Part shown: positions 28,947 through 55,073 of the stretch, in pieces | Layout: each line of letters begins with the position of its first letter | Numbering within the stretch: the first letter of the stretch is position 1 | NCBI GenBank assembly: GCA_017499595.2 | Contig: CM039009.1 | Location: forward strand, 496,001 to 560,000 | Length of the DNA stretch: 64,000 nucleotides | Direction: 5' to 3' | Source of the DNA: Psilocybe cubensis | Lineage: Eukaryota | Notes under the pieces: generated by a model | Told to the model about the DNA's origin: nothing | The model's input: only the letters and a program-made list of their open reading frames with translations | Databases searched by the model: none | Translations under genes and position numbers: made by a program

Positions 28947-31900
28947 TCAGGGGACGCCCATCTCTCGTCCGATCTCCTTCAAACATTCTCTCGCCACCGT
29001 CCGCGCGTCGAGGTCAGATACAGAATTGTTGTCCCTGCCCAACAAATCCAGAGCTTCGCCACCTCCACTAGCAACCTCCATCTTATCAGCTCGCGTGTGC
29101 AAGGAGCGGTAGATCCTGATCTCTGATGGGCTCCGGCGTGGTATTGACGCAATTTCACATAGGATGGGATAAAAGTGGAACAGGTGGGCAACAGTGGTCC
29201 GTTTCACCGAATCAGCAATGAGTTCTTGAGGAGTCGAGGGTATAGGTATATCTTTGCCAATTGCTAATTAGTGGATTGATCAGGATGAGAAACCTCGATT
29301 TATTCAAAAATAAATCCGTTACCTGGCTGATTGATGCAGTATTCTGTGGGTTTGTCGGACAATGCTGCCCACAGTGATCCAGGCCAAAGCCGAAGGCCAT
29401 GAATCTTAGTAAGAACATATAAAAGTTCTTCCTCGCGAGCTCTATTATAATGCATAAGCATCAGAATAATAAAGATGCCAAAAACACGTACCTAGGGAAT
29501 GGTGTGTTACCCCTCAATGATTCATCTGCCACGTATCCCAAAAGTGTAGTTTTGCATCGATTAAGAAGTGAAGGTAAACTTAAAGCAGCTAGTCGTCGTC
29601 GCGATTGCTCTTGATCTGGCAAAAGAAATGGTCAATACTTCACAAAGGAAAGGATAAGGAAATTAATACCTCTCGTGACATCTGAGCAGATGAGGAATAA
29701 AAGGTCGAAACACCAATACGAAAATCGTTCTCGCGGCACCAAATTGCCAAAGTCCGTAGTCCCAAGGTCAGGGTAATTAACATCCACATCCACCTTGATA
29801 ACCTTCAACGGCGGACTTATGCTTACTGCAGGCGATGTAGCATCAGTTGATGTAGATCCTCTTCTCATAGACAACGAGGGCACATCCGCTGTTGATGACA
29901 CAGAAGAGAAGGACGACGGTCGCGAAGTCATGGGTGACATCTCAGAATCCTCCACTCTGTAGATCTTGCTACCTTGGAGAAGAATCTTCCCCAACTGGGC
30001 CACAAGCACATCTGGAACACGGGGCCCACCCAGATGCGGTACGACATCAATCTCCAGAGATGCAATAAGGGCAAGATCAAAATTCTCTTCAGCCTCTTGA
30101 ACATCGAGTGAGAAGTTCTCCGCAGTTGAGCTGAAAATAAGTCGAATTGAATGAATAGCTCTGGTCAAAAAAGTGAAAAGTTGACGCACCAGTCAGCCAG
30201 AATACCACCACGGAAGACATCTAGAATCTGCCTCCAGATACCTTCAATTCGTTCATCATTTATTTTTTCCCCCATTGCATCTATTTGTAAAGTGGACTCC
30301 TTTACGATGCGGAGGAAGCAAGTCGTCGCAGTTTTCCATAAAGGCAGATCCTTGCCGTACTTTGAAGGTGCAGGACAATCGTACTTCAGTTTGACAGGTA
30401 TTGAATATGCCTAACATAAAAAGATTCAACGTGATGACCCTGAGTGTACACAAGGAAACGAACTGAGAGGACGGATTCCAAAGTTCCATCAACATAGATG
30501 TCTTCGTGTGATTTGAACCTCAAGAAAAGTTCCACCAACATTGGCATGGTCTTTTTCGAAATGGCGATGTAGGTGATGCGTTTTTGAGGGGTTTGCTGCG
30601 ATGAAGTTTTGGAGCTAGGCTGGACATCAAAAGCGGCAAGGAATGGCAGGGTGATGTATTCAGACAGGTCGCGCATGACGAGAGATGGAGAGCCTGGTAT
30701 ACTGAGATCGATGTCGACAATCGTATCCATTACCACGGACTAATAGTGCAGTTAAGAATGCTAAGTATGCGTATGCCCAAATAAAAGAACATACCTGTAC
30801 AGGGGGGAGAGCATCGATATCAGGTCTGTAATCCGGCGAATGGGGGTAGGTCAAAACACCTACAAAACTAGTTTAAGAATAAAATTGAGTTGAAGTAAAA
30901 ATCAACTTACCTTTTAGGATTGCCATCAACGTAGTCAGCCTTGGTAGATCCCACTCTTTTCCATCTACTACTTTGCTTGCTTTCCTAGTACCTTGAATCA
31001 CATCGACATACGCCACCAGACCCTCCTGAGTAAATGGTGGGTTTGGAGAATTTTCTAAGTCAACCTGGGAAGTATACTTCTTTGTTGCGGCAGTACTCAA
31101 CGCTACCAAGGTCTTCCATATCCTCTCCAGCGACTCCGATACCCGCACTCGAATCACTCCTTCAGCGCCTGAAAATGCCTTGATGGCCTTTTCGAGGCAG
31201 CGTAACGCCGGCGGGCTGATGCACCGATTGTCTGTCAAGATTGTTTCTTCGATATGAACCATGAACGCGTCCCATGCTTTCGTGTAGGAATCCAATAGAA
31301 TAATCTTGTCAATAAGGAAGTCGCTGAAAATCGATCCGATTGAGTACAGAGCGAGGATCTTTGATTCATCCCATGAATGCTCGACGCCTTCATCAGGCTG
31401 GTCAGCGCCTTTATGCGATCGTATCTGATCCGTCAAAGCATCTAGTAGGGGGAATGTAACTTTCCATATGCATTGTTCCCAAGTGTCCATGCTGAGAGTA
31501 GCACCATACAATTGCATCGTCCGAAACAACGTCTGAATGGCACCATCTCGAACCTCAGCACGCGAATCGGTGCAGAGTCCAAGAACCTCTAGCAAGAGGA
31601 ACATCCACAATTCGCTATACTCCGGCTCTTCATCCATATTCTTGCGCTTGGATTGGATAGCATCCGACACACTCCATAAAAGGCTGGCAGCGGCTGTCAG
31701 CGCGATATTGGTGTCTGCTTGGTGTCCAAAGTGCCCCAAAGTACTAATGCATAGACGAAGATGCTCTGGAGAGAGACTAGAAACCGAATCGCATACCAAG
31801 GTCAGAGATTGGAACGCGATCTTGACCAAAGCGTTATAGCTTTTTTCAGTTGGGTTGCTTAGCCCGATGGGCAGCGGCTTTGTTCGGATGACGGGTGAAG

Positions 31901-34900
31901 GAGGTCCACTCAAAATGGAAACGGAATCTGTGGATCTTGACCGCGTTGGGCGCGTAGCTCCTGAACTACCGAAGCTCTGACTTGCAGGCAGACACACGCT
32001 TCCCAGCATCTCAAATATAGTTTCCCAGCCAACAACTAGAGTATGCCCAGCAGCCTGCAAAATTTGATGTAGGGTCTCTAAGCCCATTCTCCTGATTTCT
32101 ACACTGGTTGTAGTTTGCTGGTTGAGAGGAACGTTGGAATCAGGAATTATCTGCTGTGCTAAAACATCCAAAACTCGGCGCTGGACTTCGGCCTGTAACT
32201 CTCCTGTTGAGCTCAGATTTCGCGGTATAACGAGTAGAATTTCATCTAGCACACGGGCGGCTTGGATCCGGATGGATTGGGGAGCAAAGGGGAGGCCGAT
32301 GACCATCAGCAAATGACTGGTAGTCGCGTTCCAAGCGATCTCTGGCGATCGGTAGATAAGCCGATGAATATTGAGCATGGCGACTCCTCCTAGTTTCGAA
32401 ATGCCAAAGTCACCCGACCTCTGTTGTGGGTTAGCCAAAATTCAAAGAATGTTTGGAAGAAAACTTCATGAACTTACCACATTCTTCGGGATATATATGC
32501 CACTGACCCTCCTGCGATTGCCAAAACTTTCTTGACTTTTGTTGATGGTCAAAGTGGTCCCAGTCGCCCCAGTCTCCTCTCCAGTCTCAGAAACGTTCAC
32601 AGCCACAACCTCAGTAGTTTGCATCCCCACCATTTCCGAACTCAATTTACACAACGCATTGACGAAGTCCTTGAACGCCGAATCCTCCAAATTCTTCGAT
32701 GAGTCAAACAGCCTTTGTACAGCCATTTGCATGGTCTCAACCTCAAGGTCGGAAAGTAAGGGGTGTCGTATGGCTTGAGCGTTGCTAACATTTGATTGTG
32801 AATTAGACATTGTCAATGAAACGGACCGACTTGCAGGCACGCCTCCGCCGCTACCGCCCGAGCTTGGGCCAGAGGCAGCAGCAGCAACGCCACCGAAAAG
32901 TCCCTTCTTACTGCTCTGCCCACCACCGCTCCTCGCCATCACACCAAGAACCGAATCGGCATTCTGCAGAGCTTCAAGCACGGGGTACCAGCTTTCTCCT
33001 AAGCTTCCAGCAAGGAAAAGTGCACAGCCCAAAAACACCTTCAAGCAGGCCATGTTTCTCTCAGACAGACCAGGGGGCAGACTTGGCCCGCCTAGTCCCA
33101 GCCCCTCTGAAAGTGCCGCCGTTGCCGATCGCGGCGTCTGTGGCGGCGGATGCTCAACCCAAGTCTCCAAGCTCGACACAACACGGGGAGGAACAGCGAA
33201 CTTCGACAAGGAATTGAAAAACGCGTCGCGCGGAGTCGTGAGGCCAAGCATTCCAGATACATTGGTCATCGCTTGATAGCTCGCGAGTACTTCGACGAAC
33301 AGCTCATCTGAGAGATTTGTGGAGATGATAAAAGAGAGAGCGGCGAGGAGAGCGGGCCATGCTTGCGAGATGATGGATTGCACGGTGCGCAAGTTATGTG
33401 TTTGGGGGTCATTTTGTGGTAATGCATCGAGATCTAAGGCAGGGGGTGCGCGGACAACGGCATCGCCTGCTGCACGAGGGCGTTGGAGAGCAATTTGGCT
33501 GTATATGGGCCCGGAAAAGGAGGCAAATCCTTCTGAAAGGGAGACAATGCATTGCACTGCGAGGAGATATAAGTACGCGTCGGGAATTGCAGGCGCATCA
33601 GCTTTGTCCAATTGATCAATACTAACAAATTGCATTCAGTCGAGTTCGGCTAGTATGCGGCTTTGAACATACCATTGAACTTTCATAGCTGAGCCATACG
33701 AGCTCAAACCTGCCTCCCCTCCAATCATTGTGACAACACCGCTAACAGTGGCACTTGCTACTCTTCCGGCCATATCCAACCCATATGCCGCAGCTCCGGT
33801 GGCACTAGATGATGATTCTGACTGTACACCAATACCTCCCATTTGCTGACTGACGCCAAGCAACGCAGGCTTTTCCGTCACCAATCGTTTGAGAGCCGTA
33901 ACAAGCGATGTTACAGCTTTAGAACCGGTATCGAGAGCGTCATATCGGTCCCAAAGATTTCTGATGAGCTCTGCATCGCTACATAATCTAAAGGGAACAA
34001 AGTCAACAAACAACGATGATGACGACAATAAAATGCGAGCTAACCCTCTCATTATCTCCATAGCTAAAACTCGCATCCATAGCGGTTTGGAAGAGTGTGC
34101 ATGATGTGGTTGCTCTGAGGAGTCTGGGCCATTCTCTTCACTAATGATGCGGATCAGAAGCATCAGGAACACTTCCGACTCTGTTCGAAGTTCCAATGAA
34201 AATTTTTTAAGAAGTAGAAACACGACACGGGTACACCGCAGCAGTAATGGGAATTGTGGACGTTCTGAGAGAGATTTAAGAAGTAAAGGACACATGTGAT
34301 GACTCAAAAGAAGGATAAGTTCATAATGCTGTAGATGAATTGAGCTTAGAAGCATCCTTCATTAAACACGTCGTGCTTACCCTGCGAAACTGCTCGTGGT
34401 AGTTGGTCAACACGCTTTCTATTAATTCAAGTGCAAATGTTTTGTGTAAAAACTCGAGCTTGAGAAAATTGGCTTTCTCCGAATTGGCAAGGAGGCAAAG
34501 GTCTTCGAACACAGAAAACGCGTCCTTCGCAGATGGTCCAAGTAATTTCGTTGTCCCGTCAGGTAATTGAACCTCTGACAGGTCTGCGGATGGGATTTCC
34601 TCGGATTCCTCCTGGCGATCCTCTAGCACCATTTTATCAACCACGAACATGACTAACTGTCGAAGAGTCGCCGCAGCAGTCGATGATACGACTGCGATTC
34701 TCGATTCTTGTAATTTGAAGCACAATAGTAGAGCCTAATCATGGTTCAGCGTGATTCAACATGCATAACAGGACACGTACGTCGCCTAGTAGATCACCGT
34801 GGATGGCAGGGAAGTTGGGTACTAGGGAAACCAGTGTCTGAAGAATACGAAGCTGAATGTCGACTCCTTGCGACATCGCATCACTCATTGTGCTGATGAT

Positions 34901-36015: not shown

Positions 36016-36921
36016 TCATATTATAAGAACAACACCAATCGCGGCGCCAATTGTCACCCAAAGTACGTTGGAGGCACCATTTTTGAAACCCAAACTCGAC
36101 GGTGCGCCTGGATCTGCTGTTGCACTTGGGCTACTTGACGATGATAACGACTCGGTATCGGAAGGACGAACGGTGATTTGCGACAGGGTCGAGGGGAATG
36201 GCACGGTTTGTGAAATAGTGCTTTGGGGACCGCTTGTTGTCGGGAAGATAGGTAAAATGCTAAACGTCCCATCTTCGATCGAACTGGTGGTAGAAGTAGA
36301 CGTCACAGATCTAATAACACTACTGCTCGATGCTCCGGGAACAGCAGGGACAGTCACAGCCGGGGTGTTGGGAAAGGGTGCGCAGAGAGTAGAATAACCT
36401 GTGAGGAAAAACATAACTAAGGCTGACGAAGGTTGAAACAGGTGATACCCACTGGACGAGAGTGTTTTTGCAGAGTCGACGACGAAGGGGGTTGGATTTG
36501 CTCGAATAGCGCAGTTAATGCAGGCCTGTAAAGCGGCTGCTACGGTAATGCTGCACATGCAGGTAACATCATCGCAGCCTTGCTTTACTTTCAATGAGAT
36601 AATGCTCAATACCGTAGAAAACAGGTAGCTCACATCGCCGATAGAATCTTCGAAGGTCTTACACACGGTGTCACATTGGTCCTGTTCTCACAGATCATAA
36701 CTAACCCGAACCACAATTGCCAAAGAAGTGACGCTTGCCTTGGTTAGGATTTGCCGCGAGACCAAATATCCCAAGCTCGCCAAACTGTCTCGCGTCGTGA
36801 GCGCAGATGCCGATACTAGGTGCTAAGAGTTAGTTTCCCCCAATCCAAATAAGAGGAAATAAGTCCACTCACCAAAGCATGCAGCCAGAGACAACGTCGG
36901 ATAAAGCACCTTCATATGCAT
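36016..36921 (-). CDS. 8-Cys CFEM-like secreted/GPI-type protein, array member A
   Basis: Signal-like MHMKVLYPTLSLAACF; QCDTVC...GCDDVTCMCSITVAAALQACINC...YSTLC; Ser/Thr stalk; hydrophobic tail NGASNVLWVTIGAAIGVVLII. Confidence 0.85.
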
Positions 36922-37287
36922 GTTGCACAATCCTCGCCGACTGATGAAGGGAGACCAAAGAATCGAAAAGAAAAGAAAAAGTTCACCTTTGAATCTCGAC
37001 TCTCTAGTAAGCAGAGTTTTTCCTATCATCGGACCATACTATCATTTCGAGATGTAGAGGCTTGGCACAAGGTTTATGCGTCATCGCGCTAATCACTTGG
37101 CGGTCAAAATTCAAAGCAAGGTCAAAGCATGTGCATGATGCGCATGACTCGTCGTCTTCTTGGTGCAATAATAATGGCACTCGTTCAAGTTAATATCCGA
37201 ATGTGTTCGACACATTTTTGTGGTTCAAGGCCGTCTTTTGTAGGCCGTAATTATGTTGAAAACAGCATGAACGAACGTGACAACTTT

Positions 37288-38024
37288 CTACAGATGCAAA
37301 AACATCATCAAGATGATGGGTGTCAACAAACCAGAAAGGACACATGTCGCCAAATTCCACCGACTTTTCATGCTTGCTTCACTTTTCTGACCCATTGGGG
37401 CTGCCCCTGATTTCGATGATTCGTCTCCACCCCCATTGCTACTGCTGCCTCCTGCAGAACTTGCCGAACCACCACTGCTGCTGCTTCCAGACGCAATTCC
37501 AGAACCATCAAAGTTGATATGTATTCCAGTTCCAGCACAATGATCATTGAAGCCTGGGTTAAGTATCTGGTCCTCTTCTGTCCATTTATTTACAGATCAT
37601 ATATCAAGGCATACCTTGAGCAAGAGCCACAGGATCAAAACCGGTTATCGCGTTGATGCCTGCTTCCTTGGTGGTGACGCAGTCAAAGCAGGACTGGGCT
37701 TCTTGTTGTACTGTTGTCGTACAGGGACATTCCCCTCCTGAGGCACCACAGGTCTATCGGCCCTGTTAGCAGTGGATATTATGGATAAATCAAATCAAAG
37801 CTACCGCTATCAGGCCATCGCATGCAGGATCGCACTACAGGATTTATTCAGTGGCTCAGCTCTGATGATCCGTCTAACAGCAAAGCGTACTGGCAATCTA
37901 CGCAGGAGAACATTGGCCGCTGACGTAGGTCTTTGTTTAAAATCGATCACAACGATTCGGAGTATCACGACTCACGTGAAAGGGCAAAAAAGAATATGTG
38001 AAGGATTATTGTAACGACTAACAT
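37288..38024 (-). CDS. 8-Cys CFEM-like secreted/GPI-type protein, array member B
   Basis: MLVVTIILHIFFLPF; LLRRLP-CDPACDGLIATCGASGGECPCTTTVQQEAQSCFDC...GFDP...FNDHC; Gly/Ser linker; tail CVLSGLLTPIILMMFLHL. Absent from the ORF track because of introns. Confidence 0.8.
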
Positions 38025-38350
38025 ATCTCGACGATCCAATAGTGCGAGCTCGAGAATAATCGGTGAGTCAGGTTTGTTTTTATATCATTTTTAGTGGATA
38101 TACGATGGCCGCAATCAGGTTACCGTCGAGCGCTGACCTCCAAACGTTAAAAACTTGAAAAACCGCCACATCTAATAACCTATTCATGGACCCAGCTTGA
38201 ACGGAGTTAGCAAATAACGAGCATCATTCACCCTTTCTACGGAGGCTTACGAGCACTGTGCTCTGGACGCATGCATTTACTCCGGCTGGAACTCATAATC
38301 AGACATGCACATATGCATCACAGACGTCCAAGATACTTATGATTCCCTAA

Positions 38351-39250
38351 TTACAGAACCTTGTTGATAAACATCAGCATGAATACCAAGCCTGCCGTAA
38401 TATTCCACGGCGCCATTTCCACGGCGCTTCTTTGACTTGAGCTAGTATTGCTATTTTTCTGTGGACCCGCGTTGGATCCCCCGCTCGCCGGATCCCCATT
38501 GCCACTTCCCCCTCCTGAACTTGTCCCAGAGCCTCCCGTACTTGTCCCACCATTGGCTGACCCAGAAACGCCTGTTGGACTTCCTGCCGAGCTTGTTCCT
38601 CCACTTTGCGAGCCAGCTGTCGATCCACTCGAAACGGTGACCGTTACAATTGAGGGCGTCCCGACTGGCGATGCTGATGGTTTAGCCGTTGAAGTGCTCC
38701 CACCAACAGGTGGTATAGTGATGTGTAGTCCTTCTAAAGCACATATTGTGTTGAACTCTAATACACAAATATCACGTCACTTCAGGTTAATTCATTCAAC
38801 AGAGAACGATATGTCCACCTCGAGCTTCAGCAACAGGGTCAAAACCAGCTTCAATTACAGTAGCTGCCTCATTTTGAAGCACGCAGTTCAAGCAAGCTTG
38901 GGCTTCGTTCTGTATTGCGACCGTGCATGGACATACTAATAAAGTCTCGCAGGTCTTGACCACAGTAAAAATTAGCAACAGGTCAACAAAGACGGAAGCA
39001 AAAAACCGTATACCTGGATCAAGCTATCACATTCTGAAGCGCACTTAGATATACAGGCATTAGATATTCATCTTCACGACTGGTAGTATGATTACGGAAA
39101 TGAACCAACCGGAGTTGAGGTTTGGCGCCGAAGAACACCAGCATCTGTACGCAGTGGATTGAAAGACGACTCTAACTTCATTGGTTTCAAACACTCACGT
39201 CCTATACTAAATAGAGAGAAGAAAACTATGCATGCAACGAACAGCATCAT
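38351..39250 (-). CDS. 8-Cys CFEM-like secreted/GPI-type protein, array member C
   Basis: MMLFVACIVFFSLFSI; VLRRQTSTP; CASECDSLIQTCETLLVCPCTVAIQNEAQACLNC...GFDP...FNTIC; S/G/T stalk; tail WNITAGLVFMLMFINKVL. Confidence 0.85.
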
Positions 39251-39713
39251 GAGTCAAGCCTAGAGATTGGGGGGCCGGATTAAGCTCTACAGGAGAGCAT
39301 TCATCGACGTCGTTTATAGTGTTCACTCCGATGAATTTAGGTTGGATCACAACTGAATTCAACCACATACAGCCATTATTGATGCGAAGATGAGCCTCTC
39401 TCGGGCGTCTGCCAAATCAAGCGTTATGAATCTCTTCATAAGCGATTTTGGACCAGACTACCAGCTATCACCGGCTCAGGACAAAATAGGAAAATATCTT
39501 CCTTAGCCACCTGAAGTCTTTAAGTATAGAAAGGTATAGAATGTGTGCTCATGTACCATCATTATGAACAAGTGACAGCGAGTATTCCCGATGACAATGC
39601 AGATGTTGAACAAGCATCAGAAGCAGAAACACAATTAAATTATATATTTATTTATAGAAAATTGACTGAACAGCAATATCATCTGCGATGATTAATGTTT
39701 TGCCTGAGACCGT

Positions 39714-40500
39714 TCAGTTGATGATCAATAGTAGCAGCCCAACGGCCAAGCCGTAACTCCCCACTCGAAGCTTCTCGCCGCTGCTTGTGTTGGAGCTAGT
39801 AGATGCAGTCGGAGCTGCGGTACCCGATCCAGGTGATGTGCCTGTAGGTGATGCTCCACTTGCGGTGGGTGTTGCGCTACCACTACCACTACCACTAGCA
39901 GAGGCACCTCCTGTTGAACCTGTAGCTGCAGCCTGAGGAACGGTCAGGCTGATGGATGACGCAGCACATTTGCTGTTAAACTCTGGAATCATTGCAACAG
40001 AAGTAAATGAGGTTGTTTTCATCGTGAGCCTCGAGTGACATTATACCGCTTGAGAGCGTACGCACGGGAGGTAAGAGTCGTAGGGTCGAGGCCCAGTCCT
40101 GCAGCCATGGATGCCAAAGCAGGATCGGAGGCCAAGCAGTTCAAACACGATTGAGCGGCCTTCTGGATATCACTGGTGCATGGGCATGTCTGGGGGCCAC
40201 CGCCGCATGACTGTAATAATTGTTAGGATTCTTTATCCCAGAGGCATTAGTTGCAAGACAAACCGTAATCAAAGAAGTGCAGTCAGTGGTGCATTGCTGT
40301 GAAGATGGCCATTGGTTAACACTTGGCACACGTCTATTGTATTTCTGAATGTCAACATACATCTGACTGTCGTTTTAGAACCTCAGACGCTGCTATGTAA
40401 GGCAAGTTAATCAGTAAGTAGCTTGGTGTGCTAATACAATGTACTTACATCCCAACAAAGCGAACAAGGACAAGGAAACGAGGAAAGTCTTCGCGAGCAT
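39714..40500 (-). CDS. 8-Cys CFEM-like secreted/GPI-type protein, array member D
   Basis: MLAKTFLVSLSLFALLG; VLKRQSD; QCTTDCTSLITSCGGGPQTCPCTSDIQKAAQSCLNC...GLDP...FNSKC; S/G/T stalk; tail SSGEKLRVGSYGLAVGLLLLIIN. Confidence 0.85.
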
Positions 40501-41184
40501 GTCAGAAAGGTTGGGGCTTGAGAGATCAGCATCCCTGACTGCTCTTATATACAGGGTACAGGGTATCCAACAGATGTGCGGCTTCGGAGTCGTTACTGCT
40601 GATGGGATGGTAATTTTGCTCATCTGTTTCCAGGGCACAGTTATCGATGTATCATAACGAACACCAATCTGCCATTGTGTTTGATGATTCCCGAGACCTT
40701 GCGAAATTTGAGATGATCTTCTAACTTCTTCTTGATAATTTAGTCTTCATTCCCCTCGTCGTGTCCAGTCAGAAGGCCCTGGAAATACAAGCCTATATTT
40801 AGAAGGAACTTTTGACGTTGATGGACAGACGCCAACAATTACAGCTGATCTGAAATCATCACAAGCCATCTTAAAATTGAATACTATGCTATACAAGGCA
40901 AAAGGTTAGTACTCCTCGACTTAGTAGCACAAACACACTTCAGATCGCAAGGGCCCGTTATTTACCATACGACGTTAAAGAATCCAAAATGGTCATCCAT
41001 TAGCCTTATTTGGAAAACTGTGAGCCATTTGGTTATTGGCAATAATATTTGAGGATATTGTGACAATTTGACGTGAGTGTGAGAGCTGTACATTTGCCAA
41101 AATTGCGCTTTAGAAAAATCTGAAACTGAATTCAAAATTCTGCTCTGGAGGTGGCAAAGAACAAAGCATCCGGTATGTATTGTA

Positions 41185-42198
41185 TTAAAAAATCACAAAT
41201 AGAGTAACGATCGAAATGAACCCGAATCCACTATAAAGCGAACGCATGGATAGTTTTGCTGTTGGGAGGTCTCCACTGGCCTTACTATCTGATCCTGATG
41301 TTCCTCCCTGTCCTGCGACCGGGCCTGACTTGCTGGAGCCCGAGTTGGAGCCTGAATTAGATCCCCCTGATAAACCTCCTGAGCTTGAATCTCCAGAGTT
41401 AGAACCTCCACTGGAGCTCGAACCTCCGCTGCTGGATTCACCAAAGGGAGACCCTGTTGCAGCTGGAGCTCCACCGTTATCATCTCCGGTCTCAGTGGCA
41501 AAGCCTCCATTACCGAATCCGCTTCCTGTATTAAATGCGCCTCCGCTGGTCCCTGTAGCGAACCCTCCAGAGTCATCACTTGCAGTAAAGCTTCCACTGT
41601 CATCTGAGCTGAATCCTCCACCTCCACCACCTGCGCTGAAACCTCCCGCACCCCCTGAAAATCCGGTTTCAGAGGCTCCTGCAGGTACTGTTACACTCGG
41701 AACAACTCCGGCACATTTCTGATTAAAGGCTATGCGACGCTGCTGTCAATAATTACACTTGGATTCTATTAATTGAATAACTTACTTGATGTAGCACTTG
41801 TTATGTCAGTAGTCAAATCCGCCGACTGTGTATCAACAGTAGAGAGGCATGTTAAACAAGATTGTAAATCCTTTTGAATGGCGGATGTGCACAGGCAGGA
41901 AGCAGCGCCGTTACAAGGTTGTGCTGCAGTTAAAAATGGCGTACAAGTAGGCGTACACTGTGGTGCGTCAGCTCTATTAACTGTATTGAGCCTAAACGAT
42001 CGACGAATTAGACTTACGGGATCGTTTGCTGTTGTCTGACGTTTCAGATTATCTGTATCTTCTCTAAGATAACGACTCCCTGCAGCCACTGTTCGAATAA
42101 TCGTCAGTGACAAGCAATTGTGATATATATTGAGAAGACGAAATACCTCTAGATATAAATAATATAGAGAAAGGAATTACTACTTTGGTTGCGCGCAT
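41185..42198 (-). CDS. 8-Cys CFEM-like secreted/GPI-type protein with long Gly/Ser/Phe-rich stalk, array member E
   Basis: MRATKVVIPFSILFI; NLKRQTTANDP; QCTPTCTPFLTAAQPCNGAASCLCTSAIQKDLQSCLTC...FNQKC; GGF-rich stalk; tail SGFGFISIVTLFVIF. Confidence 0.85.
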
Positions 42199-42974
42199 CT
42201 TTTAGGTTAAAAATGGTAGGTATTACTGAAGACTGCGTCGAAGAGGTCGTTCTTATATCTCCCTGGAAGCCACAAATGTTCATGTGTAGACACAGAGCCT
42301 ATCTATCTGTATCCAAGGCAATAAAGCGCTGACTGTACATCTAAGGTGCAGTCACAGCTGAAGTCATATATCTGAAAGGCTGCCCAAAATGACATCGACG
42401 TCGACTTGTCAAAATTGCTGTCCTCAAGGTGCGGAAGGTATAACACATCTTGGTCCCTTTAAACGACTTATATTAGTAAGGATTCCAAATCATTTTGCTC
42501 CTCTCTATCTCTTGCCTAGGTTGTGAAAAAGACGCTATACGTGAATAGTGAACTTCTCTCTGTTGCAGACATAGCGTCTATAAATAGACGCACTCAACTG
42601 CTGGGCGCTCATCGACATCGTGGATGTCGGGTGTGATTGTCATCACATCAAAAGTCAGCGCCGACCACGACATTGGATATAGCCACTATTAGTATTATAC
42701 ATTGCACACATGCATCTGGGCATAGCCATTACGATTCCCAACCTTCAATACATCCTCGTTCAGGCCCCGAGTGCCGTTGGACTGCCTTGTGGTACACATA
42801 TCTGTAGGTATATTCAAATCAGTTGTCTCAGGAAGCCTAACAGTCAATATAAGAGCAGATAGAGGAGCATTTAAATATATGTAGACTTGTATCTGTCAGG
42901 ATATTATGAATGAATATGATTGTTCTTCACAGTAATACTATCCATGCCAACAAAGCTGGCACTGCACTCGCATT

Positions 42975-43931
42975 TTAAAATACAAGTATTACACCTAGGA
43001 ATACACTGAACCCAATCACGCTGATGCTCACTACATCATGAGCATGCACTCCCGCACCCGTCAACCCTGGAAATCCTTGACCAGGGCCCCCAGTAACTCC
43101 AGCACTAGTAGTGGCAAAAGGATGAACAGTTGATTGTGAGATCACAGCAGTATTAACGTCAGGAGTAGTCGTAGGAACATCTGTATCGGTCGGAACTGTA
43201 GGTGTAGATACTGTTATTGGCGGCACTGATAATGAGGGGATATTGCTGCCAGATGGTATTGGTAGTGTCCGGGTCCCCGACGTGGATGGCGGAGTTACGA
43301 CACCGGTGGTTCTTCCAGGTAAAGACGTCGAAGGCCCTGCACCTCCACCTGAGCCTGATTTAACAGTTATTGGTTGGAGTCCAAAACCCGCGCATGCTCC
43401 GCTATAAGCTGAGAATATTGTGAGAACCCAAACACAAGTATTATATAATTAGAAAATGATATTTACTGTCGACGAGGTTCTGTGCAGTGGAAATGACATC
43501 AGGCGATGGGAGTGCATTGACGGAACAATCAACACAATTCTGTAATCCCCGGTCCACTGCTGAAGTGCAAAGGCATCCTAGTGTACCGCATCCCTATAGA
43601 CGGATAATATTCCAGTTTAGGCGAATCATTGACTTTAAAAGATAATGACTCACGTTCAATGCATTGTTGAAGACTGCACAAGCAGAATCACACTAAAAGA
43701 GATGCTATATTAGAAGGCTGTTTGAACTATCATAGATTGAACGGTAAACTCACGGGTGTCGTCTGCCGAGTGAAAATAACTGCGTCTCGGATGAGACTTC
43801 TGGGTACGATTGCCAACACTTGGATCCAACAAACAAGATCAATCTCCCTTATCAAGATATTTTCGAGAGTAGAGCCAACCTGGAGCGATGCACAGCAAGG
43901 AGATCGTCGCCTGAGCCGTTGGGAAGCGCAT
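42975..43931 (-). CDS. 8-Cys CFEM-like secreted/GPI-type protein, array member F
   Basis: MRFPTAQATISLLCIA; IFTRQTTP; CDSACAVFNNALNGCGTLGCLCTSAVDRGLQNCVDC...YSGAC; Pro/Thr stalk; tail VVSISVIGFSVFLGVILVF. Confidence 0.85.
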
Positions 43932-44753
43932 GCCGTCGAAAGAGAGGGAGAAAGAATGAGCGAACGCTGATCTTTAACTTTACAAGACTGGGTGCTCTTT
44001 ATACGCGATCATGAGATCATGATGTTGGGTAGCTGTCACTGTCAATTACCATATTGACGGCATTAGCACTGCTCGGAATTTCTCCCACAGTTCCCGTCGG
44101 TACTAGTTTAGCTAGTACCAGTGCCATTACAGTTTTATGAGGGTATCTTGTGCAGTGTAAGATTTTCCACTTCATGTGCACACTGAACAAAGTTTCCAAG
44201 CAGATGAGTTTTCTAGTATGAGCAAGAGGAACCCGCATAACTATTTTCACCGCAAACCCTCCGCAACAGATCACGAACTGGCCAAGGCTTTAACCATTTG
44301 CGGCAAAGGCAGCCTCGTGCGGAATCATGTTCTATTAATAGATCAGATACATGTCAAAATTGGTTTGGATCAGTAAAACCAAGTAATGCGATAATACTTA
44401 CCGCTTTACCATATAACTGTAGCTGTTTAACCGTTATTCAATTACAATAGCTAGCTAAAGCCCTTGCTTCAAGTTTCAAAGGACAGGAGACTTGGACATC
44501 CCATTTATTTTTAGCACAACCGGGCGCTAATTTTGAAGTTTCGATGCCCCTGAACCCTGAACCTGAACCTGAAAGTCTAGGTGCCTTACAGATTGCCAAG
44601 ACTTCCATTACTCCGACTATGTGCTAGTCCCAAAGTGCGCTTTGATGTCCGTGTATGTAGCTTTGAAGCGAGTGAGGACACATATATCTTTACTTTTGAA
44701 GATTGGTCCCTCCTATCTTTTGGATCTTGGAGTTCCGCAGACCGCTTCGTTCG

Positions 44754-45595
44754 ATGGATAAGCATATAATATTAGCGCTGACAGCATCAGCTGGCACAGC
44801 TGTACTCATGCTACTATCTGCATGCTCAATGATAACAACGGCTCATGGTATGTGTTCTGGTCCTGTTATGAAAAAGAGCTTATTTGATTTGTGACCCGAA
44901 TCCACTGCGTGCAGGTGCCCAGCTACCAAGATCCACGTACCAGGATATCCAAGCGAGAAATTTATCATCGTTTTTTAACTCCATCCCTGTACAAGTGCGA
45001 CCTCATTCTATATCCCTCCCAACTTCTCCAGTAACTGAATAACACACAACACATTCAACGTACAGTGTCAAGTTCAATGTGACATCGTCAAAGGAGCAGC
45101 CCAGGTAAGTCGACCTTTCGTTCAAACTATGGACCGTATCACGTCCAACTCAACATACAACATAACTGTTGCAATATAGAACTGCCAATATCTATCATGT
45201 GCATGCACAACCCAGCACTCTATGCAGCTCCAAACATGCGTGAACTGTATCGTGGCGCTGAACCCTTACGCCGATGGTATTGTAGATGAATATCAGACGA
45301 TCCTTGATGGTGAGTTATCACAACCTGTCTCTTCTCCTTGGGAGCTATTTGACCGTCCACCTTCCTGTCAGAATGGAGGAACAGTTACTGTGAACCCTTT
45401 CCGATCCCGCCTTTGCACGTATCGCTTCCGGGATCCCAATCTTCGTCTTCATCATCTGTTTCTACTGAATCTCCATCTGCACCGATTTCTCCAGCCGCTA
45501 AAAGTTTCGCGGTGAAGAATGCCCAAACAAGCGCGGCATTACTCACTTTCATGTCATCCCTCCTGCTCCCTTTAATACTTCTCATGTCCAATTAA
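44754..45595 (+). CDS. 8-Cys CFEM-like secreted/GPI-type protein, array member G (inverted orientation)
   Basis: Hydrophobic N-terminus (AVLMLLSACSMITTAH); CQVQCDIVKGAAQNCQYLSCACTTQHSMQLQTCVNC...WRNSYC; Ser stalk; tail SAALLTFMSSLLLPLILLMSN. Confidence 0.8.
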
Positions 45596-45600
45596 CGACC

Positions 45601-46562
45601 TCAATGAAAATGCATGGCCAAGAGACACGATAGCGTTGCCCCAACAAGCTTCCATCCCGGTTTTGATGTTTTCTTCTCTGCAGCCGACCTCGCCCTTAAC
45701 ATTATACCACTCGACATCGGCACGCCGCCGCCCTTCCGTCGGACGGCACGGCAAACCTGTTTGTTGTTGACTGTCCACTGTGCAGTTTGAGAAGGGACAG
45801 GGATATCTGTGGTCGGAGATATGGAAGGGTCAATAGAGATGGTCGGTGTAGTACCACTGAAATCATCTCCAGAGTTAACAATCCGCAGAACTGTGTACTG
45901 AAGCGAATGAATGAACGTACTTGTTGAAATAATCTGGGACAATCTGTAACGAAAAATCGAACGCAGGACTGCACGTATCTTCGAAATCTGTCCCCAGAAT
46001 TTGAGAACTCGTGCTGCCAGAGTAAAGTGGAATCATACTAGAAAATATGCCTTGCGCTGCATCGTAGATGTCTTGGCTTGGCGACACAGCGTACAGACAC
46101 GAAACGCAGTCTTCCAGTCCATCAGCGTTGTCTTGAGTGCATATGCACATCCCATACTCGCATGTCTATAAGCAAATCATGTAATCATCTGCCTGGTAAG
46201 ACAAAAGATGTACCGTGTACTTACCTGGAAGCTCGACGAAGTGGTCTGACAAGCTTGCACACACTTCCAATGTACCCTTTAATCTTCATTGTATAGCAAG
46301 CATATAGATAAGGATTCTCACTGATGGCGGGACGAGATCGAGAACAGCGACGTTGGAACTTGGGCCAGCGGTAGGGCTATTAAAATTGAAGGGCGGAAAC
46401 TTCAATATAGGGTTCATGAACGTTTTAGCAGGTGTCTGAACATCACTGACACATCCATGGGTCAAAAACGACTTGGGAACTCGAACAGACGACAGCAGAG
46501 TGTGCAATTGTGGTAATAGAAGGAAGAGAGAACGTAAAACTCAAGCTGCCCGTCGGTGACAT
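45601..46562 (-). CDS. 8-Cys CFEM-like protein, array member H (start uncertain)
   Basis: CVQACQTTSSSFQTCEYGMCICTQDNADGLEDCVSC...FEDTC; Thr/Pro stalk; tail GWKLVGATLSCLLAMHFH. N-terminal exons and signal peptide are poorly resolved. Confidence 0.7.
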
Positions 46563-47344: not shown

Positions 47345-50300
47345 CTAAGCGCGACCTCTACGAGGGCGCCAGACTCCTCCACCGCGAGTACTCGAAACTG
47401 TCTGGAATCCATCTTCATCCTTCTTTGGCTCCTCCTTCGCAAGGGGCGCAGCAGCAGCAGCAGCAGCAGGAGGCGTTGGACCTCCTCCAGCAGCTTTCTC
47501 CTGCTCCCTCTGCCTCCATCCTCCTCCTCCAAGGGCACCAGGCCTGTACTTGGCTGGCGCAGCACCCGGCGCGGGGCTTTCAGAGCGCGACGGTGGCGCA
47601 GGCGCATCTGCCGACGAACGCACAGGCGTAGCGGGCACCGAGCTTGTAGGCGTTGCCGACGAGCGTCTCCACACACCCGGCTCGTCTTTAGCGCCTGCGC
47701 GCACGGATGCAGGGACGGCGGAAGGCGCGGGTGCCGCTTTCTGGGCGGCACGGCGTGCAAGAGCCTCTTCTTCTCTGCGTTGCTGGAGCAGGGCTTTTTC
47801 TCTGGCTTCCTGGCGCTCTTTTTCGCGTGCCTCGCGTCGGGCAGCGGCCTCGGCCTCCAATTTGCGCTTCTCTTCTTCCGCACGGGCAGCAGCAGCCTCG
47901 GCTTCGAGTCGTAAACGTTCCTCCTCGGCAGCGCGTTCTGAAAGACCAGAATATTAGACATAACCCAATTTTTTGAAATGAATGAAGAGACGTACCGGCT
48001 GCTAGCCTGGCCTCCTCGGCCTCCTTCTTGGCACGCGCCTCCTCGAGAGCCGCCTGCCTCTTCGCCTCCTCCTCGCGGGCCTTCATGACCTGCTTCCTCC
48101 TCTTCTCCTTCTCCTCCGCGATCTTCCTCTGCGCCGCTTCGAGCTTGCGCTTGAATTCCTCTCCCTTCTTCTCGATCACCACTTGCCTGCGCTCTTTATA
48201 GTCACCCAACATGCGGCTCAGCCGCGCTTTGGTCTGCAGGTCTTCCTGGTGCGCGCGGTATGCAGCCTCGAGGCGCGATTTCTGGATATTCTCGAATGTC
48301 TCTTTGTCCGTCTTTTGCTGTTGTTCATAGTCCTGAGCGAGTAAGGAGCGCTCTTCCTTTCGGTAGGCACGTTCGATGTGGTCGATGCGTTTGCTAGTGA
48401 TACGCAGGCGCTCTTGGAGCTCCTTCTTCTCCTTTTCGAGCTGTGCGACTTGGATAGTAATCAATCCCTCTGTATCGAACGACTCCAATTTCTATATTGA
48501 AGATTAGCTTTAGAACGAGAGAAACAGTGATAATGAAAGTACGCACATCAACCTCATTCGCCTTCAAGATACCCTTATCTACGAGACTCTGCGCGTACTT
48601 CTTGGCTTCATCAATCCTAATCGATTCAATCTCCTTCTTTGTGCGTTCCTGTTCCCTCCTCCGCAAGTCCTCCTTGGCCCTTCTCGTCTCCTCTTCCTTC
48701 TCCCTCCTGGACGATTCCGCCCGTCGGCTGCTTTCCTCCTTCTCCTTGCGTACACTAAGTTCGCTAAGGAGCTCACGACGACGTGCAACAAGCGCACGGC
48801 GCAGCTGCAAAGCTTTGCGCTCCGACTCAACAGCAGCAACAAGCGTGCGGAACCGTGCAGCCTGTTCCTCCGCAGTCGGAGCAGGGGGCTTCTCCTCAAT
48901 CGCCTCAAGCGTGTTGTGCAAGCACAGCGCGACCTTGCTCAAACGCGTGCGCACGAGCTCAGCCGTCGAAGGCTGGATCGCGCTTTCCCTCGTGGATGTC
49001 GACGCAGTCGAGGTAGACGCCGTGGGCTGGTCATCGCTGGTGACGAAGGGGTCATCGACGAATGTGATGCTGCCATCTTTGTGGTCGATACGGACACTGA
49101 GCTCACCGCGGCGTGCGCAGCCCATAATGTAGGCCTCAACCTGCTCGTCGTCGAACGAGCCCTCAAGCCCGGCATCTTTGAGTGGTGCAACGAGAGACAG
49201 CAGGTTGCTGATTTTGATGGTGGAATACACCTGCGAGAGCTGAGAAAGAAGGCGCGAGAGCAGGGCACGCTGGAGGAGAGGGAGGTACAACGAGAACGCT
49301 TCATCGCCAGCCAATGTCTGCAGCAGTGGTGCAATGGTAGCGCAGAGGGTCAGTGGGTCAAACGTCACTTCAAGGATGTTGTACAATTTTTTAACCGACA
49401 CAGGGGAGAGCTTGAGGATGTCACGGGCAAGCTGAATAGCAAAATTAGCACGGCAATGCGCCAGAAAACTACGTAAGAAAACTCACAGCGTCCTTGAGCA
49501 ATCCAGAGCGTGTGGGCATGCGGCTGAGGCCAAGCAGCGCCGTGAGGCGTGCATTTTTACCCTTGAGTTCGTCTGGCTCCTCAGTGTGCAGGCCGACAGG
49601 AACAGCAAGGGCGCTGACGAGGACCTGGGCGGCCAACCTGCCCATTTCCTCATTTGACACCCCGCCGATTGAGCTTACGACGGCGTAGTACCGGCTCCAC
49701 GCAGCGGCGTGATAGAGGGCGTTGCCACTCATGAGGAAGATCTTTGTCAGTTTTTCGTAGTAGTTGGCCATCATGGCGGGGCGTGGCGCCTTCTTGGCCA
49801 TCGTGAGGAGGTTGTGGACATCTTCGACCGATCGGAAGGCTTCTTGCCAGAGCTCGAGCTCGACAGAGGTGTTGAGTTGTGCGAAGCGTGTATCGAGATG
49901 GTGTTGGAGGGTTTCTGGATCGGAAAGGTTGATGGAATATTGCTGATGCGAGTATTTGGCAACGTTGGAAAGATGGAGGCGGAGAGTCTCGCAGAGACGG
50001 CGGAATTCGACTTTGCGCTGATGTTTCAGGCAGAATTTGAAGGCTTGTTGGGCAATTTGCTGAACGCAATGTAAGACGGTGAAAAATAAATTGATCCGCA
50101 ACTCACCTGGTAAATAGCCTCAAGTCTCATATTGTTTTTGAGTGTCTCCAATGAAGTCCTATAACTTTCCCAAAGGAACTTGAGCCAGGGGGTGACAAGG
50201 GCACGATCAGTGCGGTCCTTGTTCTGATCACCGCTGACAGCACCGAGAAGGATACTCTCCGGTGTTTCGCTCGCCTCCAAATCATCAATGTCGACGGCCG

Positions 50301-50634
50301 ATTTGACAGCCGCCTTTTCCTGCGCCTCGCGCACCTTCTGGTCCGCGAGTTGCACAAATCGGGTGATAACGGTCTCGATACTCTGCACGCTTGTGTTTTG
50401 TGCGATGTTTTTGTACTGCATGAGTCCCTCCTTGGCTGTGCGGCCCTTGCGCATGTCGACACAAAGCTCGATGAAACGATGCATAATGGGCTCGAGAGAG
50501 GTGAGCGGGGTCGATCTAAATCGTTTTGAAGAGAACATCTCGGTCATTGACTGCAGCGCAGCGTGGCTCTGTCCGACGGAGATGAGGCCCTCCGCCTGCT
50601 TAAGCACGGTCTCTGGTTTGGAAAAGGGCGCCAT
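47345..50634 (-). CDS. TIF32: Eukaryotic translation initiation factor 3 subunit A
   Basis: MAPFSKPETVLKQAEGLISVGQ, AKEGLMQYKNIAQ, TDRALVTPWLKFLWESYR, QLNTSVELELWQEAFRSVEDVH (PCI region), long charged coiled coil, RIDHIERAYRKEE. Confidence 0.97.
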
Positions 50635-52391
50635 ATTGTACTATCATGAAAAGCTCAGCTTAAGTCAAAAGCCAGATTTTACAAGATAATAAACGTACAA
50701 CGAGTCAAGAAGTGGCTGCTCGTTGGTCGCCTGGAGATCAGATATGCGAGCTCGACGATGGATATGGCGATGAGGACGTGGTCCACCCAAAAAAATTGGT
50801 ATTTGCTTTAGGGCCGGTCAAAATTCCCACAGTCATCATTGTTATCGGTCCCGAGCAACATCGTTCGGCTTTGATATCTCCTGCTTACAACGTCTGGAAT
50901 CATGGTTTGACTAACAATTTTGTGAGCAACACGTACTAGGGAAGCCTCTGAGGCCCATAAAAATTAAAAGGTCGACGCCGGCAGCATTCGCCTAGAGTTG
51001 TGCATGTCTTGTCGGTGTCTATATCTGATGATGACATGCAATTAGAGATATTGGGACTCTGGGAACAATTTCAGGTTAATACCAATTCCTTGTAAGTTCT
51101 AGGATTTTATTTTGTGAGTAATAGCCTAATTTTTTGCATTTTACAAAGGCTGGGAGCTGATTTACTCGCTTTTACCCCATTTAACGTTCGCACACATTGA
51201 GTTCTGGTAGAATTCGCGGTTCAACATTGCAGTTTTTTTGACTCTAAGTGCTTTCACCTCGCTTTATGCCATCTCTCTGTTGGTAAGGAGTTGCTTCGTG
51301 CTGGAAATTGTATCAAGATCGTCGACTTCAAGATGCATTGAAGAAATAAACTGCAATCCGGGCATGGAAGCGTCGAAGTTGAGACCAGACGATGCATATG
51401 GAAATATATCAGTATGTTCAATGGCTCAGGTTCGAGATAAATCATACTTATAAAGAATATCACAACATGCTGATGTTTATTGTTCAGTAATCATCTTATT
51501 CCAACATCTGACAGTGTTACTCTGCAGCTTAACGCAGTTCCACCACGATCTCTCGCGAGAGGCGTGAGCTCCATGATGCTTCCTTGAGAGTCATAACAAT
51601 TCGTGTTCTATCCCACGAGTTGACATTAACACTGCAAGCGTCATATATCGGAGGTGGAACGCATATTTCCCTTCGAAATGCCCAACCTAGTCGCCTACGG
51701 CAGTTGGCGTCTGTGGATAGCGTATCAATTTTTTCTCAACTTCAAGCATCGACACCATCCTGCCTCACGATTCAAAACCTGCCCCAGGGACGCCTGGCGA
51801 TATCGCTACTGCGACACACGGGCCAGCTAATGCTGGATATCGGTTCCTAGAAATCGCTCATGTATGCGCGGGTAAGATCATTTTCGGCGCTTAATCATTT
51901 TGTTGTTCGACTGTCGCAACCGAACGATGCACGGACTAGGCAGAAATTTCTTTGGCACCCTTTGAACAACAATGTCTTTGTCAATGTCAAAGCTGCCTAT
52001 ACTCAAGGACCGTGCTGCCAGTAGCAGCATTCAGAGTAGGAAAGCCTATTAGTGCATGGTTGATGTGCCATTGACGATTGAACCAGAAGCAGAACTCTGA
52101 TAACTCAATTCCTTGCCAATTATCCCTATAGCTGGCATATGACAGTTTTCGAAACGATATCATCTGATTTCATTCGGTCAGGTCACAAACCGCTGGAAAA
52201 TATTCCCTAAGCAATAAAGGTTATTGTGGCATACCACTGGAGTGACTCAGGACTACCCACGCAAATCACCGAATACTCTCACGTGCCGCTGCACCTTTGT
52301 TATCTTTGAGATCCAACCGCAAGCCAAATCACATAAAGGGAGTTCTGCTAGGCACTGTTCCTTCCCTATCTTCTGAGTAACAACAGCGTCG

Positions 52392-54896: not shown

Positions 54897-55073
54897 TTAT
54901 ATTGCAAGCCTGCAAATGTATATTAGTTAAGAATAGTTACAAATCCTTTTCAGACGCCGTTTAAAATGTGCCCAAGCAGTTCACGCCCCGCTCGCCGTTG
55001 CGATGACTGTCGACAACTTCAAAAGCGATTTTTTAGTCTCGAATACTAAGTCTCTTCCAATACGCTTGATTTT

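What the first reader, a model, noticed from the sequence alone, without database searches (positions are those of the whole stretch)
36016..46562. Array of eight diverged paralogous cell-surface proteins with a non-canonical CFEM-like 8-Cys domain
Seen in sequence: eight intron-split genes lie between MON2 and eIF3a, and the ORF track largely misses them. They share a signal peptide (unclear in H), then C-x3-C-x6-11-C-x4-6-C-x-C-x10-C-x2-C-x24-28-C, then a low-complexity S/T/G/P stalk and a hydrophobic C-terminal tail. The x10 and x2 spacings are invariant while the residues between cysteines are very divergent. Intron positions recur: just before C1, between C2 and C3 (absent in E), and phase 1 shortly before C8. 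Established knowledge: canonical CFEM has C-x3-4-C and about 15-16 residues before the last Cys, and hydrophobins have CC doublets, so this fits neither exactly. Inference: this is an old tandemly expanded family of GPI-anchored surface proteins forming a variable surface repertoire (adhesion, recognition or fruiting-body development).
Basis: partly seen in the sequence, partly recalled or inferred. Interest (0 to 1): 0.8.

Follow-up and report, generated by a model that had tools for sequence, protein, structure and literature searches.

The report
Ancient mushroom surface-protein gene cluster
Eight neighbouring genes of a Psilocybe mushroom encode membrane-anchored surface proteins with a small eight-cysteine head that domain libraries do not cover; the cluster is old and shared with many other mushrooms, has grown by duplication in Psilocybe, and its job is still untested.

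Summary
Observation confirmed. Eight intron-split genes between MON2 and eIF3a share C-x3-C-x6..11-C-x4..6-C-x-C-x10-C-x2-C-x24..28-C, a S/T/G/P stalk and a hydrophobic tail. The core pattern occurs 8 times in the window, all in the array; 0.01 expected. G is on the + strand, tail-to-tail with H. One spliced-RNA run covers all eight; 13 of 32 modelled introns are among the joints shown. Database names give Psilocybe cubensis; public models fuse several genes and carry a 'CFEM' label.

It is not canonical CFEM: no match to Pfam or the consensus, and the heme-ligand Asp position is kept in 1 of 8. Distant kinship stays open. It is a widespread mushroom family, modal C-x3-C-x9-C-x4-CxC-x10-C-x2-C-x24-C, predicted as a disulfide-stapled three-helix head.

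Members share a contig with MON2 in 8 of 9 testable species. F, G and H have orthologues in other genera (49-66% non-Cys identity); B-E form a Psilocybe clade; another fungus has one gene where this has six. So: an old cluster with birth-and-death growth, not a hypervariable repertoire. Ligand and function are inferred only. No earlier scan note on this family was returned.

The parts
36016..36921 (-). Gene A, 228 aa; exons 36921-36873, 36815-36739, 36681-36634, 36582-36453, 36398-36016; second intron modelled as GC-AG; the only member with Asp at the CFEM heme-ligand position
   Evidence: model; X1 contig covers the last exon; one X1 joint disagrees with the model; Asp count
37288..38024 (-). 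Gene B, 170 aa; exons 38024-37976, 37919-37891, 37834-37805, 37753-37615, 37553-37288; Psilocybe clade B-E
   Evidence: last intron seen in X1; P. cyanescens orthologue 70% non-Cys identity over the partial domain
38351..39250 (-). Gene C, 219 aa; exons 39250-39199, 39144-39110, 39043-39014, 38954-38819, 38757-38351; Psilocybe clade B-E
   Evidence: RNA cover of the last exon, no joint among those shown; tree
39714..40500 (-). Gene D, 175 aa; exons 40500-40449, 40389-40361, 40296-40264, 40210-40066, 39982-39714; has a dispersed paralogue about 450 kb away on the same contig
   Evidence: 3 of 4 introns seen in X1 and X2; paralogue
41185..42198 (-). Gene E, 279 aa; exons 42198-42147, 42088-42018, 41957-41786, 41729-41185; lacks the C2-C3 intron; long Gly/Ser stalk
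   Evidence: low RNA cover in X1 only, no joint among those shown
42975..43931 (-). Gene F, 238 aa; exons 43931-43880, 43818-43754, 43692-43654, 43593-43467, 43408-42975; modal family spacing; old subfamily
   Evidence: 4 of 4 introns seen in X1 and X2; orthologues 45-65% non-Cys identity
44754..45595 (+). Gene G, 188 aa; exons 44754-44847, 44915-44994, 45066-45104, 45180-45309, 45372-45595; the only + strand member; old subfamily
   Evidence: last intron GT..AG on + in X1 and X2; orthologues in Galerina, Laccaria, Crepidotus, Crassisporium 49-66%
45601..46562 (-). Gene H, about 194-224 aa; start and first exon(s) unresolved; then exons ...-46322, 46263-46225, 46165-46039, 45987-45921, 45856-45601; extra intron and a ninth Cys in the stalk; converges on G
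   Evidence: 4 introns seen in X1 and X2; orthologues 54-75%
30873..32441 (-). Flank: one long exon of MON2 (the gene spans about 28950-35200), the anchor gene to which the family is linked in other mushrooms
47345..50640 (-). Flank: eIF3a gene
   Evidence: PF22591 E 1.9e-64 and PCI domain; spliced RNA

Best explanation
An old Agaricomycete cluster of 'head-on-a-stalk' surface mannoproteins with a domain of their own. Shown: eight intact genes, spliced RNA, shared intron positions, a conserved 8-Cys spacing, linkage to MON2 across mushrooms, old subfamilies F, G, H and a younger Psilocybe clade B-E. Predicted: the head is three long helices plus a short one. Inferred: the signal peptide takes the chain into the ER; a basic/RQ site ahead of C1 is cut by a Kex2-type protease; four disulfides lock the head; the stalk is O-mannosylated; the hydrophobic tail is exchanged for a GPI anchor, so the acidic head is held out through the wall. 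Most likely job: hyphal-surface contact or wall-structure proteins that bind a protein or wall partner, with the paralogues dividing the work by tissue or stage (sub-functionalisation, birth-and-death evolution). They are probably not heme carriers.
For: Models and intron phases; spliced joints. 74 non-self hits at E<=0.001, 50 of them with a complete domain; 54 domains with x3 54/54, x9 52/54, x4 46/54, x10 54/54, x2 54/54, x24 41/54. 41 of those 50 end in a hydrophobic tail with at most one charged residue in the last 6, and 37 of the 41 have a small-residue triplet 16-34 aa from the end. Basic pair or RQ within 25 aa before C1 in 46 of 57 domains; mean 6.7 D/E against 0.9 K/R per domain. 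AlphaFold2 of the P. cyanescens F orthologue: pLDDT 89-96 over the domain, helices 39-54, 58-61, 64-80, 84-100. Metagenome contig L018: MON2(-), one A/F-type(-), G(+), H(-), with the same four introns in the A/F-type gene. B-E clade support 0.98 and a shared 55-nt DNA repeat at 60-71%. Adhesin traits (signal, GPI, Cys-rich region, dibasic sites) as reviewed in PMC6023273 (passages).
Against: No ligand, localisation, mutant or stage data for any verified member. GPI and Kex2 sites rest on simple hydropathy and motif counts, not on dedicated predictors. H has no clear signal peptide and the weakest tail. 9 of 50 homologues lack a hydrophobic tail and 13 of 50 a hydrophobic start (many look like faulty gene models). 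PMC6023273 says known adhesin head domains are beta-sheet folds, whereas this one is helical. The homologue set was found with a profile built on these eight genes, so invariant spacing and the Psilocybe-only B-E clade are partly shaped by sampling. In Amanita phalloides the one member looked up is on a different contig from MON2; metagenome contig L020 has a G-type gene and no H-type match in about 3.4 kb downstream.
Confidence: 0.55

Rival explanations
1. Diverged CFEM proteins that still work as heme or iron relays at the cell wall, like Candida Rbt5/Pga7/Csa2.
For: Same number of cysteines and the same order of four helices as a CFEM of this genome; profile-profile alignment puts C1-C7 in register over 43 columns, E 0.019; Asp three residues before C4 in 10 of 57 homologous domains and in gene A; one homologue scores 19.9 bits on PF05730; heads are acidic.
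Against: hhalign probability only 2.5%; 0 of 8 own and 0 of 74 homologous proteins match the relaxed CFEM consensus; the Asp is invariant in 6 of 6 true CFEMs of this genome but absent in 7 of 8 array members and 47 of 57 homologues; helix 1 runs 16 residues up to C3 where the CFEM model has an 8-residue helix and a long loop; the genome has 7 separate canonical CFEM matches.
Confidence: 0.12
2. A fast-changing recognition or evasion repertoire (self/non-self code, or decoys against mycoparasites, bacteria and grazers), as the first reader leaned to.
For: Paralogues only 7-40% alike outside the cysteines; copy number at the locus differs (1 against 6 in the first slot); P. cyanescens has two F-like genes; among the SNP rows shown, the stalks of F and G carry 8 changed against 8 silent codons (40 of 194 rows shown).
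Against: Orthologues keep 49-75% non-Cys identity across species and genera, far above the 23-26% to the nearest paralogue for F, G, H; order and orientation are conserved; strain X5 differs by only about 0.1-1.8% over the pieces shown, similar to the MON2-side piece at 0.3%; no long near-identical repeats for shuffling.
Confidence: 0.18
3. Members of the CAP22-type class of wall proteins (Colletotrichum appressorial wall protein), acting as structural wall components of specialised cells.
For: The only feature-based ESM Atlas hit for the H head is a PF28223 CAP22 cluster, score 0.76, 130 of 256 features shared; a structure look-alike cluster is mostly ascomycete, TM 0.74. CAP22 is a secreted wall protein induced in appressoria (PMC6064131, passages).
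Against: 0.76 is below the level the tool calls more than a lead; PF28223 is not in the library held, so no score was obtained; no CAP22 sequence was in hand.
Confidence: 0.15

Closest known systems
CFEM domain proteins (PF05730; GPI-anchored group; Candida Csa2, PDB 4Y7S, Rbt5, Pga7)
   Same: Fungal, about 60 aa, eight Cys beginning C-x3-C ... CxC, all-helical with the same helix order in models, signal peptide + stalk + GPI-type tail
   Different: C6-x2-C7 and x22-28 before C8 instead of x3-4 and x15-16; C3-C4 loop of 4 with the Asp mostly missing; longer first helix; no Pfam match; separate genes from the 7 canonical CFEM matches in this genome
CAP22 family (PF28223; Colletotrichum gloeosporioides CAP22)
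   Same: Small secreted wall protein; nearest family by language-model features (0.76, lead only)
   Different: Single-copy and appressorium-induced in C. fructicola (PMC6064131); relation not scored here
GPI-anchored fungal adhesins and wall mannoproteins (Als, Flo, Hwp1, Mad1 class)
   Same: Signal, folded head, S/T-rich stalk, dibasic site, GPI signal, paralogue families
   Different: Those heads are mostly beta-sheet and the stalks carry tandem repeats; here the head is a small helical disulfide bundle, stalks are short and binding is not shown
Hydrophobins
   Same: Eight Cys, secreted, often clustered in mushroom genomes (recalled)
   Different: No CC doublets here; stalk and anchor signal present; helical model

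Membership tests
CFEM (PF05730) | Profile score over the Pfam cut-off (22 bits) | tested here: not met
   0 of 8 core exons, 0 of 3 public models, 0 of 74 homologues over cut-off, one at 19.9 bits; genome search gives 7 matches, none in the array
CFEM (PF05730) | Consensus PxC[A/G]x2Cx8-12Cx1-3[x/T]Dx2-5CxCx9-14Cx3-4Cx15-16C (as quoted in PMC13586796) | tested here: not met
   Relaxed form matches 0 of 8 own and 0 of 74 homologous proteins; C6-C7 is x2 and C7-C8 is x24-28
CFEM (PF05730) | Eight conserved cysteines in a roughly 60-aa extracellular domain | tested here: met
   8 of 8 genes; 8 invariant Cys in a 41-sequence alignment
CFEM (PF05730) | Conserved Asp before CxC (heme-iron ligand in Csa2) | tested here: not met
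   Present in 1 of 8 array members and 10 of 57 homologous domains, against 6 of 6 true CFEMs of this genome. That this position is the heme ligand follows from the consensus and recall of Nasser 2016, not read
CFEM (PF05730) | Helical-basket fold of Csa2 | tested here: inconclusive
   Same helix order, different helix lengths in the two models; no direct superposition was possible; see Tried and rejected for the fold searches
CFEM (PF05730) | Disulfide pairing as in Csa2; heme binding | not testable with these tools
   Model coordinates are not returned; binding needs an experiment
CAP22 (PF28223) | Profile match | not testable with these tools
   Family absent from the Pfam copy held; ESM feature score 0.76 is a lead only
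Hydrophobins | Two CC doublets in the 8-Cys pattern (recalled) | tested here: not met
   No adjacent cysteines in any of the 8 domains; no hydrophobin Pfam hit
GPI-anchored wall proteins | N-terminal signal peptide | tested here: met
   Hydropathy peak 2.1-3.0 in 7 of 8, unresolved in H; hydropathy only, no SignalP
GPI-anchored wall proteins | C-terminal hydrophobic tail with a small-residue omega site and no cytoplasmic tail | tested here: met
   8 of 8 by heuristic, H weakest; 41 of 50 homologues
GPI-anchored wall proteins | Anchor actually attached, surface location | not testable with these tools
   Needs PI-PLC release or wall proteomics

The most novel reading that the evidence does not exclude
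A distinct, uncatalogued recognition domain (a deep sister of CFEM/CAP22 that lost heme binding) sits at an ancestral MON2-linked locus of mushroom-forming fungi, and its paralogues act as a stage-switched surface code for hyphal aggregation: some on vegetative mycelium, others on primordia, with the overlapping tail-to-tail pair G/H regulating each other as natural antisense transcripts. This would supply candidates for the long-sought adhesins that build fruiting bodies.
Probability: 0.15. Interest if true: 0.75.

Novelty: new variant of a known kind. Interest (0 to 1): 0.45.

Why it matters
Few cell-adhesion or surface-recognition proteins are known in Basidiomycota (PMC6023273, passages). 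Here is a definable family with a sharp cysteine signature, one syntenic locus and conserved subfamilies, so a single cluster deletion in a model mushroom could test its role. It also shows an annotation trap: public models fuse three or four of the genes into one protein, similar two-domain models occur in other mushrooms, and a 'CFEM' name is attached to proteins that fail the CFEM tests, which may distort CFEM counts in basidiomycetes. The architecture itself is ordinary for fungal walls, and no function is shown, which caps the interest.

Tried and rejected
Automatic enumeration of splice models timed out; models were built from listed donors and acceptors plus RNA joints. Pfam on the core exons: no relevant hit. 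A weak PF12192 CBP hit on the public model of A (E 0.041) was not pursued. ESM Atlas with the E exon: no usable hit. PDB sequence search with the family profile: 6 rows at E 0.17-7, chance cysteine matches. Fold searches with the family model (223 aa, tail included): Foldseek no match at E<=0.001; VIA wide best Z 6.7, generic helical bundles, Csa2 not among the 50 rows shown; second look at 81 chains did not list it either. Control: a model of a true CFEM of this genome finds Csa2 at rank 1 in both (Z 7.8, rmsd 1.4, 61 aligned; TM 0.83). The family domain was not folded alone, so the absence is inconclusive. RGMB N-terminal domain (Z 3.9, rmsd 3.7, 66 aligned) is taken as a common arrangement. 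No run was on record as RNA; X1 and X2 are treated as RNA because of canonical spliced joints; contig depth was not used to rank genes. Parts of A and E without cover in X2 are not read as silence. Literature searches found no paper describing this cysteine pattern or locus; the library lacks most subscription papers, and the CFEM/cell-surface section of Nagy et al. (PMC10282164 and its preprint) lies beyond the text held. Four look-ups in the scan's earlier notes returned nothing on this family. C. cinerea genes near MON2 were not accepted as members because their sequences were not seen. No complex prediction was run: no partner is proposed with enough ground.
Full report
1. What is in the sequence. 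Six-frame reading and splice-site lists gave eight gene models, A to H, between 36016 and 46562. Seven are on the minus strand; G is on the plus strand and its stop codon lies 5 nt from that of H. All eight encode C-x3-C-x6..11-C-x4..6-C-x-C-x10-C-x2-C-x24..28-C followed by a 67-175-aa stalk (44-76% S/T/G/P/A) and a hydrophobic end. Seven have a hydrophobic N-terminus; for H three starts were tried and none gives a clear signal peptide. Introns recur at four positions. The core pattern occurs 8 times in the window, all in the array, against 0.01 in shuffles. Non-Cys identity between the domains is 7-40%.

2. Expression. Two runs of one study (X1, X2; RNA is a guess on record) show joints at canonical splice sites that two DNA-like runs lack. 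Of 35 joints 15 are shown; 13 fall in the array and match 13 of my 32 modelled introns (B 1, D 3, F 4, G 1, H 4; the first intron of H is itself uncertain). X1 has depth over all eight genes, X2 over six. One contig in each run carries both the plus-strand intron of G and the minus-strand introns of H, as expected if their 3' ends overlap. One low-depth X1 joint in A (36562|36692) does not fit my model. Contigs cannot rank expression.

3. Organism and public models. Hits matching my models are named Psilocybe cubensis. The public models fuse D, C and B (461 aa) or D, C, B and A (529 aa) into one protein; one carries the name 'Extracellular membrane protein CFEM domain-containing protein' although Pfam finds no CFEM in it. 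Searches of the own genome with five queries found one further member, a D-like gene at about C12:986,000 with D-like splice donors; counts are lower bounds.

4. The family. A profile of the eight core exons found 77 proteins at E<=0.001 among 1.84 billion representatives: 3 are the public models of this array, 74 are others. 50 of the 74 hold a complete domain; two of the rest look like unrelated repeats. The 54 domains give a modal pattern C-x3-C-x9-C-x4-C-x-C-x10-C-x2-C-x24-C. 41 of the 50 end in a hydrophobic tail. 46 of 57 domains have a basic pair or RQ shortly before C1, and the heads are acidic. I looked up names for 20 of the 74, and one search listed 9 proteins, 8 of them named: 17 other species of Agaricales and one of them a bolete. 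Range beyond Agaricomycetes was not established; the ESM Atlas lists two basidiomycete and one mostly ascomycete cluster with a similar predicted head (TM 0.80, 0.82, 0.74), none with a Pfam family on the aligned part (the Atlas model is weak over the whole protein, pTM 0.40).

5. Locus history. For 9 of those 17 species the MON2 protein was among the 120 of 283 rows listed. Equal contig length is a proxy; I did not see those contigs. In Galerina the G and H types have consecutive accessions. Direct DNA evidence comes from metagenome contig L018: MON2(-), one A/F-type gene(-), G(+), H(-), the order and orientation seen here, with one gene where P. cubensis has six; its A/F-type gene has the same four introns. 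In L015-L018, probably one fungus, the G and H stops are 54-55 nt apart. L020 has G and no H match downstream. Two-domain database proteins from Gymnopilus, Panaeolus, Paramarasmius and Tetrapyrgos look like fused neighbours, so tandem pairs are common.

6. Old core, younger expansion. In a tree of the short domains (FastTree, deep nodes weak), G groups with orthologues from four genera (support 0.999; 49-66% non-Cys identity), H with its own (54% Galerina, 75% P. cyanescens), F with 45-65%; each is only 23-26% like its nearest paralogue. B, C, D, E and the dispersed copy form one clade (0.98) whose only other member is from P. cyanescens; they also share a 55-nt DNA repeat. Sampling could hide B-E relatives in other genera. 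A is a long branch among F-like sequences. Strain differences in the pieces shown are small; among the 40 of 194 rows shown, F and G stalks have 8 silent and 8 changed codons, too partial for a selection test.

7. Is it CFEM? By profile, consensus and the conserved Asp, no. By ancestry, possibly: the profile-profile alignment to six true CFEMs of this genome keeps C1-C7 in register but at probability 2.5%, E 0.019, 10 of 57 domains keep the Asp, and the two AlphaFold models share their helix order while differing in the first helix and the C2-C4 loop. The fold comparison is inconclusive (see Tried and rejected). CAP22 is an untested lead.

8. How it probably works. Shown: genes, splicing, conservation, linkage. 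Predicted: a rigid helical head. Inferred from established fungal secretory biology: ER import, propeptide cleavage, O-mannosylated stalk, GPI anchor, head displayed at the wall. I put 0.55 on surface contact or wall-structure proteins with stage or tissue division of labour, 0.18 on a fast-changing recognition repertoire, 0.15 on CAP22-type wall components (which overlaps with the first), 0.12 on heme relay. A hint only: in Coprinopsis cinerea, MON2 is CC1G_07939, and supplementary tables of PMC4082614 list CC1G_07943 (signal peptide, 190 aa, 28-fold higher in mycelium) and CC1G_07945 ('GPI-anchored small secreted protein', 226 aa, 8.6-fold higher in primordia; its Schizophyllum orthologue up, its Laccaria orthologue slightly down), with CC1G_07944 and 07946 higher in mycelium. 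I did not see their sequences, so membership is unverified.

9. Papers seen. Passages only: PMC13586796, PMC6064131, bioRxiv 10.1101/2022.05.25.493415 (62), PMC4082614 (73, plus supplement rows 92, 96), PMC13563720, PMC6023273. PMC10282164 and its preprint: only the first 300,000 characters are held and the relevant section was not seen (27, 31); it or its supplements may mention these genes. Kulkarni 2003 and Nasser 2016 were not read. Eight searches found no description of the family.

10. Verdict. A new variant of the GPI-anchored Cys-head wall protein, outside the Pfam copy held, not a canonical CFEM, in an old cluster with lineage-specific growth. Interest 0.45: a clean, testable family, but ordinary architecture and no shown function.

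Noticed in passing
window 45595-45601; L015-L018: G and H stop codons are 5 nt apart here and 54-55 nt apart in another fungus; RNA contigs run across both genes, so their 3' ends probably overlap in antisense.
   Followed up: partly
window 45601-45856 (gene H stalk): H-type proteins keep a ninth cysteine in the stalk (Q-x-C followed by basic residues) in 7 of 8 checked, the eighth being truncated; also in L015-L018. It could form an inter-chain disulfide.
   Followed up: partly
window 36562-36692: A low-depth X1 joint with four letters between its sides does not match the modelled introns 2 and 3 of gene A, whose second intron is modelled as GC-AG; alternative or faulty splicing is possible.
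   Followed up: no
window 46408-46415: Strain X5 has a compensating one-base insertion and deletion that removes the ATG used by the public model of H, which casts doubt on that start.
   Followed up: partly
L012 1200-1980 (G000:C12 about 986,000): A dispersed D-like ninth copy, 63% non-Cys identity to D over the partial domain, about 450 kb from the array.
   Followed up: partly
L003 and L004 (G000:C11:1737787 and C12:1891333): Two canonical CFEM loci on different contigs give the same translated frame: a recent duplication or an assembly duplicate.
   Followed up: no
window 25080-25589: A short-chain dehydrogenase lies downstream of MON2; in C. cinerea an SDR (CC1G_07947) also lies a few tags from MON2, and a Paramarasmius MON2 model is fused to an SDR, so the block is an old neighbourhood.
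   Followed up: partly
window 12230-13675: Exon pieces that look like a dye-decolourising-type peroxidase gene (recalled motif likeness, not tested).
   Followed up: no
window 55050-56306: Exon pieces that look like a terpene synthase-like gene with degenerate metal-binding motifs (recalled likeness, not tested).
   Followed up: no
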